Part shown: one piece after another, positions 1-48,688 of the stretch
How positions within the stretch are numbered: the first letter of the stretch is position 1
Layout of the letters: each line of letters begins with the position of its first letter
Assembly: GCA_951406725.2 (NCBI GenBank)
Contig: OX597826.1
Location: 45,508,001-45,572,000 of the forward strand
DNA length: 64,000 bases
From: Octopus vulgaris
Taxonomy: Eukaryota
Direction of reading: 5' to 3'
Translations under genes and position numbers: made by a program
Notes under the pieces: generated by a model
Seen by the model: the letters and a program-made list of their open reading frames with translations, nothing else
The model's database searches: none
What the model was told of the DNA's origin: nothing

Positions 1-175
1 TTCAGCGTGACACAGAATGTGACAAGAAGACCCTTTGAAATACAGCCACTACTCATTTTTTGCCAGCTGAGTGAGCTGGAGCAACGTGAAATAAAGTGGC
101 TTGCTCAAGCACACAACGCGTCACCGGAAATTGATCACACGACCTTATGATCGTGAGCCGAACACCCTAACCCCT
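1..175 (-). mobile_element. tRNA-derived SINE, family D, runs off the window start
   Basis: Reverse complement has a tRNA-like head followed by gtgtgcttgagcaagccactttatttcacgttgctccag; homologous to copies at 41020-41272 and 61313-61570. Confidence 0.75.
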
Positions 176-13465: not shown

Positions 13466-13634
13466 TAATCATATGCATATATGCACTCACACACACACAT
13501 ACACATACAGATATATATATATATGCAGATACAGATATGTACGTAGATTCATACAAATATACATACCTACAAACACACACACACACGCACGTACACACCA
13601 TACTCACACACATACATATATTTTATTAATAAAA

Positions 13635-13779
13635 CTGCAAAGACATTACAAAAACCGTTACTCAGAGTTTCTCGTTCCCGTTCATCGAACAGTTTTGGAT
13701 TAGAATCATTGTAAACCAAAACTGTCCGAAGAACGGGAACGTGAACCTCTGAGTAACAGTTTTTGTGATGTCTTCGCAG
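13635..13779. ncRNA. hairpin element built from two inverted minimal hammerhead ribozymes
   Basis: ~64-bp arms. Right arm (+, 13718-13763): AAAACTGT-CCGAAGA-ACGGGAACGT-GAAC-CTCTGAG-TA-ACAGTTTT. Left arm (-, 13651-13696): AAAACTGT-TCGATGA-ACGGGAACGA-GAAA-CTCTGAG-TA-ACGGTTTT. Confidence 0.7.
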
Positions 13780-13803
13780 ACTTATTACTCCGTATTCGAA
13801 TAC

Positions 13804-14010
<207 letters not shown>

Positions 14011-48149: not shown

Positions 48150-48688
48150 CATAAATATTATGCATAAACTACGGGCATTTAAGGACAAAAGTTTGTATCT
48201 TGATTTCAGATGACGATGATATACAGGGGATGGTTGATTGTTCTTGTTTAGTTTCCCATGATTTTCGTATTGCTAGTTATTGTGGGTGCAGTATACTCAG
48301 ACCAACTGATATCCTTTATCCACGACTCACCAGACTTAACAAATTTCCATACTTGCCCATCGTCGCGTAGGCTAAAGCTTTCCTGTGGCACAGCATTGCG
48401 ATTTAGGGAAGCTACAGATCTTAGCGTTGGGCGTACATCAGGTGGTAGGCCAGGACGTGTCCGAAAGGTAATTCTGTTTTCGTGCCGAGCCCTATCAGTG
48501 GCTAGATGGTATGCCTGCACCTCAGTAGAGTTCGAAAACAACAGCCTAATCAATCTGGGTTTGGATCCTGGTCGGCCAAGGTGGAAAGCACTTTTTGGAG
48601 GAACATAGCTTAGGTCCTTGGATGTGTTGCCAGTAAATGCCTGTAGATCTACCACGTCGATCGAAATGAAGGATAATATAAAGGACAT
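48150..48688 (-). mobile_element. LINE fragment: ORF1 C-terminal half (open, 146 aa) plus start of the APE endonuclease
   Basis: HLGRPGSKPRLIRLLF...GN* resembles CR1/L2/Jockey-group ORF1p; just downstream KLLSLNARSL matches APE motif I. Confidence 0.65.

What the first reader, a model, noticed from the sequence alone, without database searches (positions are those of the whole stretch)
13635..13779. A hairpin made of two inverted minimal hammerheads
Seen: each arm of this 145-bp inverted repeat is a 46-nt HHR (8-bp stem I AAAACTGT/ACRGTTTT, stem II ACG-GGAA-CGT with a GNRA loop, CTC-T-GAG stem III, GUA site). The arms carry different lesions, so their consensus is a complete ribozyme. Inference: a PLE inverted-pLTR product. 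A transcript from either strand would contain one ribozyme plus its antisense, so it could be self-inhibiting or a dsRNA substrate for ADAR or Dicer, which matters in heavily RNA-editing cephalopods.
Basis: partly seen in the sequence, partly recalled or inferred. Interest (0 to 1): 0.72.

Follow-up and report, generated by a model that had tools for sequence, protein, structure and literature searches.

The report
Back-to-back Penelope retrotransposon start stubs
This hairpin is a decayed, back-to-back pair of the short hammerhead-bearing end of a Penelope-type jumping gene, an insert shape that is very common in this genome; it likely formed when both cut DNA strands were copied off the start of the element's RNA, and both ribozyme copies are predicted to be inactive.

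Summary
The hairpin is real (fold z -17; arms 86% alike) and each arm is a damaged minimal type I hammerhead. It is a decayed ~190-bp insertion (13621-13811) of a Hydra-clade Penelope-like element (PLE). The same repeat ends a decayed RT-endonuclease copy, and an 86%-alike one flanks a young subfamily with intact ORFs. It is ordinary here: 28 of 61 young insertions are such two-armed minis. It is not a MITE: junctions vary, and in 27 of 28 minis one arm carries the 71-nt tail and the other lacks it. Arm 5' ends pile up against an initiator-like CCATT just before the ribozyme, not at its cut site; this locus's arms end exactly there. Best model: both nicked strands primed cDNA at two internal sites, ran off the RNA start and were joined. 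The scan noted this model before in other genomes. Transcription, editing or dicing of this locus is not shown.

The parts
13621..13706 (-). Left arm: pLTR stub from the putative RNA start (A of CCATT-like motif, 13706) to 3' end A (13621, no tail), abutting TA/CA repeats
13651..13696 (-). Minimal type I hammerhead, left arm; C3->U, C at position 4, A at 11.1, one G-U change in stem I
   Evidence: sequence; column counts
13707..13707 (.). Single C:G pair at the inversion centre: either templated base -1 of the right arm or an untemplated (cap-like) G on the left arm; not decidable
13708..13779 (+). Right arm: pLTR stub beginning at the A of the CCATT-like motif
13718..13763 (+). Minimal type I hammerhead, right arm; C at position 4, A15.1->C; predicted cut site after 13755
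   Evidence: sequence; column counts
13780..13811 (+). Remnant of 3' end A plus the PLE tail, shortened by deletions; shows that this arm was of the tailed (end B) type
   Evidence: read by eye against family tails
13812..14005 (.). (TA)n tract, the family's target type; no target-site duplication can be told
   Evidence: flanks of loci

Best explanation
The hairpin is a decayed two-armed mini-insertion of a Hydra-clade Penelope-like retroelement, likely made when the element's protein nicked both strands of a (TA)n target, primed cDNA from each strand at two internal sites near the 5' end of an uncleaved element RNA, ran off the RNA start just ahead of the hammerhead, and the two cDNA ends were joined head to head. 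SHOWN: family membership, link to an RT + GIY-YIG-type ORF, two fixed 3' ends (A at p77/78, B at p149; hammerhead C3 = p11), one of each per insertion, a sharp limit of 5' ends at the CCATT motif, no pile-up at the ribozyme cut site, lesions in both arms here. INFERRED: that the limit is the transcription start, that both arms come from one ribonucleoprotein, that joining is by end joining on short overlaps, and that these two ribozymes do not cleave. The locus most likely has no function; if transcribed it would be generic double-stranded RNA.
For: Family: 517 exact 32-nt core matches, reversed control 0; 1203 tail matches; 3710 core matches for the young subfamily. Coding link: L061 ends in this subfamily's hammerhead unit and matches the young 727-codon frame at 50-64% over residues 16-727; young pLTR+tail is 86% alike to the older unit and flanks intact ORFs. 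Shape: 28 of 61 young insertions are two-armed minis; 27 of 28 have one end A and one end B (binomial 1e-7); at least 15 of 30 loci of the window's subfamily are two-armed (after dropping 4 microsatellite false partners from the 19 printed). 5' limit: 46 of 91 young arms end at p-8..p45, 3 at p-18..-56, 42 beyond p-160; genome-wide exact matches fall from 3710 (p11-42) to 1899 (p-6..25). In the window's subfamily 34 of 37 arms end at or after base -2 of the CCATT A, although its stem I starts about 10 nt further in; this locus's arms end at -1 and 0. Arms of one insertion share subfamily letters: distance 0.10 against 0.18 +/- 0.013 shuffled, 0 of 2000 (31 pairs). Literature: purified PAc cuts and extends both strands, starts RT at two internal sites that bound the tail, and uses uncleaved RNA (PMC11167929, parts 1-2 of 4 read); the D. 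virilis Penelope transcript starts inside the pLTR (PMC2377424, passages).
Against: No RNA 5' ends were seen; only contigs could be laid, and they cannot show starts. In the young subfamily the extended stem I is predicted to begin at the same base (p-6), so structure is confounded with the start there. A few arms pass the limit slightly (about p-14 in L121 and L129; p-18 or -11 in L228). No cap-like extra G stands out at solo 5' ends. CCATT is short in AT-rich DNA, and a similar motif precedes only 2-3 of the Hydra hammerheads in Craig's table (by eye). The drop from 3710 to 1899 also includes sequence variants. Shared subfamily letters could reflect subfamilies active at different times. Young samples are the first matches on one contig (91 of 3075 matches); one search kept only arms with an intact downstream motif.
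Confidence: 0.65

Rival explanations
1. Same PLE origin, but copying stops because of the hammerhead's structure: once the cDNA has copied both strands of stem I it folds on itself and lets go, or RT stalls there, so the 5' limit is not the RNA start.
For: Young extended stem I is predicted to start at p-6, on the limit. Some junctions use stem I complementarity (L009, L027, L070, L176).
Against: In the window's subfamily the limit lies about 10 nt upstream of stem I and tracks the CCATT A; the B subfamily does likewise, 15 of 15 arms at or after it.
Confidence: 0.17
2. Same PLE origin, by self-priming or fold-back of one strand (an antisense template, as proposed by Arkhipova et al. 2013), giving a palindrome at the junction.
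For: Several young minis are perfect palindromes on a 4-nt palindrome at p-3 (L147, L156, L163, L206). Arms share subfamily letters. Proposed in PMC3846280, Discussion read.
Against: Most junctions are staggered, with 0-3 nt overlap or a few filler bases. Fold-back alone does not explain one end A plus one end B in 27 of 28.
Confidence: 0.1
3. The minis are a self-spreading non-autonomous family (SINE-, retrozyme- or MITE-like) copied as whole hairpins.
For: They are very numerous and of similar size.
Against: Junctions differ from copy to copy; ends are unequal; no tandem arrays were seen; arms match the pLTR of coding elements.
Confidence: 0.04
4. This locus was kept as a functional RNA switch or small-RNA / A-to-I editing substrate.
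For: Very stable hairpin on either strand. One 153-nt contig of a run guessed to be RNA matches unique DNA about 430 bases upstream. PLEs are small-RNA targets in rotifers (PMC3846280 passages).
Against: Both cores carry lesions and the tail is deleted, as for neutral decay. No contig listed joins the hairpin to its flanks. No Pfam hit in 100 of 157 longer non-repetitive reading frames of the window, a weak test for a host gene.
Confidence: 0.04

Closest known systems
Insertion unit of endonuclease-bearing PLEs: pLTR, adjacent inverted 5'-truncated copy, optional tail at one end (Craig et al. 2021, PMC8557442; Arkhipova et al. 2013, PMC3846280)
   Same: Head-to-head inverted copies, tail on one end, hammerhead in the pLTR, (TA)n targets.
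   Different: Both arms are cut down to about 85-155 bp with no ORF; the tail is about 71 nt, not 30-40; 5' ends stop at one motif.
Hydra clade PLEs, e.g. Hydra-2_aMil and Hydra-1_Obim (Craig et al. 2021, section 11 and supplementary files S1, S2)
   Same: RWK, DKT, CxCX5C, CxxC, CxH, no CCHH. Hydra-2_aMil has the same inner stem I, the same stem III with a 1-nt loop, a GNRA loop II and GUA (by eye).
   Different: A different family from Hydra-1_Obim: its hammerhead differs, and none of four family motifs is in the supplement text held. Repeat period 3361 bp against 'generally <3 kb'. Older subfamilies have C4; all Hydra rows listed have U4.
PAc, Poseidon of Anolis carolinensis (Frangieh et al. 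2024, PMC11167929)
   Same: Two internal RT start sites bounding the tail, both strands extended, uncleaved RNA as template: fits ends A and B and the lack of 5' ends at the cut site.
   Different: Another clade; the paper's main text does not treat inverted or run-off products (term search).
Minimal type I hammerheads of PLEs (Cervera and de la Pena 2014, PMC4209133, parts 1-2 of 4 read)
   Same: Short palindromic helix III that needs a dimer; opposite-strand pairs 100-700 bp apart were already noted in Schistosoma.
   Different: Here the two motifs are 21 bp apart and sense/antisense, so they cannot form the tandem dimer; U4C core.
Twin priming of L1 and retroviral minus-strand strong-stop DNA (both recalled, no call)
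   Same: Both target strands prime on the RNA; a short cDNA runs off the RNA 5' end.
   Different: L1 twin priming copies non-overlapping parts of the RNA; here both arms copy the same part. No tRNA primer or true LTR.

Membership tests
EN+ Penelope-like element | Repeat is the terminal repeat of an RT + C-terminal GIY-YIG-type ORF | tested here: met
   L061; tblastn to the young ORF 50-64%; YRDD, G-VY and YTG motifs. Pfam scan of the ORF gave no hit; homologues carry PF26215 or PF28514, one PF01541.
EN+ Penelope-like element | Partial tandems forming pLTRs | tested here: met
   Same unit before and after intact ORFs in L120-L131.
EN+ Penelope-like element | Inverted 5'-truncated copy with a tail on one end only | tested here: met
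   27 of 28 young minis; tail remnant on the right arm only at this locus.
EN+ Penelope-like element | Target-site duplication | tested here: inconclusive
   Flanks are TA/CA repeats.
Hydra clade | RWK, DKT, CxCX5C linker, CxxC and CxH, no CCHH | tested here: met
   Motif scan of the young ORF against section 11 of PMC8557442; the decayed copy L061 was linked by similarity, not scanned motif by motif.
Hydra clade | Insertion into (TA)n | tested here: met
Hydra clade | Generally under 3 kb | tested here: not met
   Period 3361 bp; a tendency in the paper, not a strict criterion.
Hydra clade | Placement in an RT tree with reference Hydra elements | not tested
   Only compared by eye with the Hydra-1_Obim protein shown.
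Type I hammerhead ribozyme | Canonical core CUGANGA / GAAA / UH | tested here: not met
   This locus: C4 in both arms, plus C3U (left) and A15.1C (right). Older subfamilies: 6 of 54 arms canonical, 14 of 54 intact but for C4. Met in the young subfamily.
Type I hammerhead ribozyme | Three helices around the core | tested here: met
   Stem I 8 bp, stem II 2-3 bp with GNRA loop, palindromic stem III; between subfamilies the changes fall in N7, loop II and loop III, but also in positions 4 and 11.1; no two-sided compensatory change in stems II or III within this genome.
Type I hammerhead ribozyme | Match to an Rfam hammerhead model | tested here: not met
   None at E<=10.
Type I hammerhead ribozyme | Self-cleavage | not testable with these tools
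   No 5'-end pile-up at the cut site among genomic copies: 1 of 37, none of 91 at p40-41.
MITE | Fixed size, matching terminal inverted repeats and a TSD | tested here: not met
   Variable centres, unequal ends, many one-armed copies.
microRNA precursor | Rfam gathering score | tested here: not met
   All matches far below threshold, driven by the hairpin.

The most novel reading that the evidence does not exclude
The segment from the CCATT start to ends A and B acts like the R region of a retrovirus: every PLE insertion begins with two cDNAs primed at A and B near the 5' end of one uncleaved RNA; each runs off the start and either jumps to the 3' pLTR (giving long arms and tandems) or fails and is joined to its twin (giving these minis). 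The minis would be genomic fossils of a paired strong-stop step, would map the promoter to the base, and would explain the tail, the inversion and pLTR regeneration with one mechanism.
Probability: 0.4. Interest if true: 0.6.

Novelty: new member of a known kind. Interest (0 to 1): 0.33.

Why it matters
The locus itself is a dead copy of a known structure. The value lies in the population: how PLEs form inverted and tandem ends is named as an open question in PMC8557442, and this genome holds a young family with many intact ORFs and, by extrapolation from 28 of 61, many hundreds of sharp mini-insertions. They give exact predictions (RNA start at the CCATT A; priming at p77 and p149, one per strand) that one 5' RACE and one in vitro assay can test. 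They also seed the genome with short near-perfect inverted repeats, a plausible but untested source of double-stranded RNA.

Tried and rejected
Rfam on the whole window and on the locus: only microsatellite- or hairpin-driven miRNA matches. Neptune assignment, my first guess from the linker cysteines: dropped for Hydra. Identity with published Hydra-1_Obim: rejected (the supplement is read as text and one long run shown was cut). 5' ends at the ribozyme cut site as a sign of cleavage in vivo: not found. Cap-derived G: no clear signal. A base-by-base walk to find 5' ends was misled by subfamily variants at p-12/-13 and was replaced by alignment to six natural references; the p-17..14 count of 685 is confounded by the same variants and not used. 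One search was noisy from microsatellite in the references; one search replaced it for 5' ends. Sequencing runs: 17 of 21 rows hold the stretch or part of it, 16 of them at share 0.04; contigs laid on the locus cover the arm through other family copies and do not show this locus transcribed or edited; contigs of three runs guessed to be RNA cover the young ORF start, but cannot show starts or strand. Host gene search: 100 of 157 frames scanned, no Pfam hit; the upstream flank is single-copy. Searches for a published run-off model and for octopus PLE hammerheads found none; the library lacks most subscription papers, so absence from print is not established. A bioRxiv paper on retrozymes (10.64898/2026.07.22.740005, part 1 of 5 read) concerns tandem arrays, which were not seen here.

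Full report
Observation. Window 13620-13795 folds into one hairpin of -93 kcal/mol, z -17.4 against 200 shuffles; the arms are 86% alike over 153 columns. Each arm holds a 46-nt minimal type I hammerhead layout: 13718-13763 on + and 13651-13696 on -. The two motifs point away from each other, their 5' ends at the centre. Rfam finds no hammerhead here, and neither arm has an intact core: both have C at position 4, the right arm has A15.1->C, the left has C3->U and A at 11.1. The insert runs from 13621 to about 13811, between TA/CA repeats.

Family. A DNA search of the genome gave 693 candidates, 40 scored, 52 matches. Exact patterns gave 517 matches for a 32-nt core and 1203 for the tail, with reversed controls at 0. 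Copies stop at one of two 3' ends, both followed by (TA)n: end A at p77/78 and end B at p149 (numbering: hammerhead C3 = p11), a tail of about 71 nt. L061 carries this subfamily's unit downstream of a decayed ORF and a tail fragment upstream of it. A protein search with that ORF piece found a young subfamily with many 727-codon open frames (first Met at 17), whose pLTR and tail are 86% alike to the older unit and flank the ORF in partial tandems and inversions. L061 matches that protein at 50-64% over residues 16-727. The protein has RWK, DKT, YRDD, a CxCX5C linker, an endonuclease core without the CCHH cysteines, CxxC and CxH: the features given for the Hydra clade (PMC8557442 section 11). 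Pfam gave no hit. The published Hydra-1_Obim is a relative by eye but another family; Hydra-2_aMil has the most similar hammerhead. An earlier scan note gave the Hydra lead. The host is called octopus in earlier notes; I did not test that.

The ribozyme. The young subfamily has the canonical core CUGAUGA (3710 exact matches), with an A-A mismatch closing stem II. In 54 older arms chosen by sequence outside the core, position 4 is C in 41, T in 12 and G in 1. T is as frequent there as at the other CpG cytosines (7, 13 and 14 of 54), and G5->A occurs 11 times, so C4 was the source state and T is likely CpG decay. U4C is reported to lower activity considerably in vitro yet to allow viroid infectivity (PMC3088659, passage). 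Minimal PLE hammerheads cleave weakly and as dimers (PMC4209133, parts 1-2), and C3 changes abolish the PAc ribozyme (PMC11167929). I therefore predict that neither arm here cleaves, alone or in the hairpin (-93/-101 against -8/-9 kcal/mol).

How common the shape is. I parsed 91 of the first 100 listed matches (of 3075) to a young-subfamily pattern lying 3' of the ribozyme; 4 in a complex locus and the last 5 were left out. They make 61 insertions. 28 are two-armed minis like this locus, and 27 of the 28 have one end A and one end B (binomial 1e-7); the other has a full and a partial tail. Centres vary, mostly with 0-6 nt overlap or a few filler bases; a 4-nt palindrome at p-3 is a hotspot. 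At least 15 of 30 loci of the window's own subfamily are two-armed. This rules out a MITE and matches the known PLE unit with an inverted copy and a one-sided tail (PMC8557442 passages; PMC3846280 passages and Discussion).

Where the arms stop. Of 91 young arms, 46 end at p-8..p45, 3 at p-18..-56, and 42 beyond p-160; none ends at the cut site p40/41. Genome-wide exact matches halve between p11-42 (3710) and p-6..25 (1899), in part through variants. The limit sits on a CCATTCT motif that fits the recalled initiator pattern YYANWYY and begins the block shared by old and young subfamilies. In the window's subfamily 34 of 37 arms end at or after base -2 of that A, though stem I starts about 10 nt further in; in subfamily B, 15 of 15 end at or after it. 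This locus's arms end at -1 and 0: two untrimmed copies joined directly. The two arms of an insertion share subfamily letters (0.10 against 0.18 +/- 0.013, 0 of 2000 shuffles, 31 pairs).

Mechanism. PAc cuts and extends both target strands, starts RT at two internal sites that bound the tail, and prefers uncleaved RNA (PMC11167929, parts 1-2). Penelope's transcript starts inside the pLTR (PMC2377424, passages). The simplest reading: one strand of the cut (TA)n was primed at A and the other at B, near the RNA's 5' end; both cDNAs ran off the start and were joined. Family, ends, pairing and limit are shown; the start site, the single complex and the joining route are inferred. I give the PLE origin about 0.93 and the full model 0.65. 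The main rival is a structural stop, since the young extended stem I is predicted to begin at the same base; self-priming on an antisense template is the published alternative. Against my reading: a few arms reach p-14 to p-18, no cap G stands out, and no RNA ends were seen. I wrote the run-off idea in my notes before finding that four earlier scan notes from other genomes say the same; they are unchecked and are not independent support. Searches did not find it in print.

Function of this locus. The upstream flank is single-copy; 100 of 157 frames gave no Pfam hit. Laid contigs cover the arm through other copies; none listed joins it to unique flanks, and one short contig of a run guessed to be RNA lies about 430 bases upstream. 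Editing, dicing or regulation is neither shown nor excluded.

Verdict. Real, explained, and ordinary as a locus: a dead mini-insertion of an apparently undescribed Hydra-clade family. Modest interest comes from the population pattern, which makes the PLE copying cycle directly testable.

Noticed in passing
L120-L131; G000-wide: A young Hydra-clade subfamily with many near-identical 727-codon open frames and over 3000 pLTR ends; probably recently or still active.
   Followed up: partly
L002:1511-1517 and other older copies: Older subfamilies spread widely with a U4C core; CpG decay turns it into the canonical U4 in about a fifth of copies.
   Followed up: yes
L126:2125-2154: The young hammerhead has a canonical core but only two Watson-Crick pairs in stem II, closed by an A-A mismatch; the window's left arm has the same A.
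   Followed up: no
window 13621-13634; L002:1565-1578: End A of the window's subfamily is a 14-bp palindrome holding AATAAA on both strands; it is not palindromic in the young subfamily.
   Followed up: no
L213, L235: Some long inverted pairs also stop at nearly the same place on both arms (p-1233/-1243, p-416/-421), as if two RTs moved and stopped together.
   Followed up: no
L131: All three pLTR copies of this one insertion share a one-base difference absent from the other young loci shown in that call, pointing to one source for both arms.
   Followed up: partly
window 48248-48688 (-): A 146-codon frame that resembles, from recall, a LINE ORF1 remnant; no Pfam hit.
   Followed up: no
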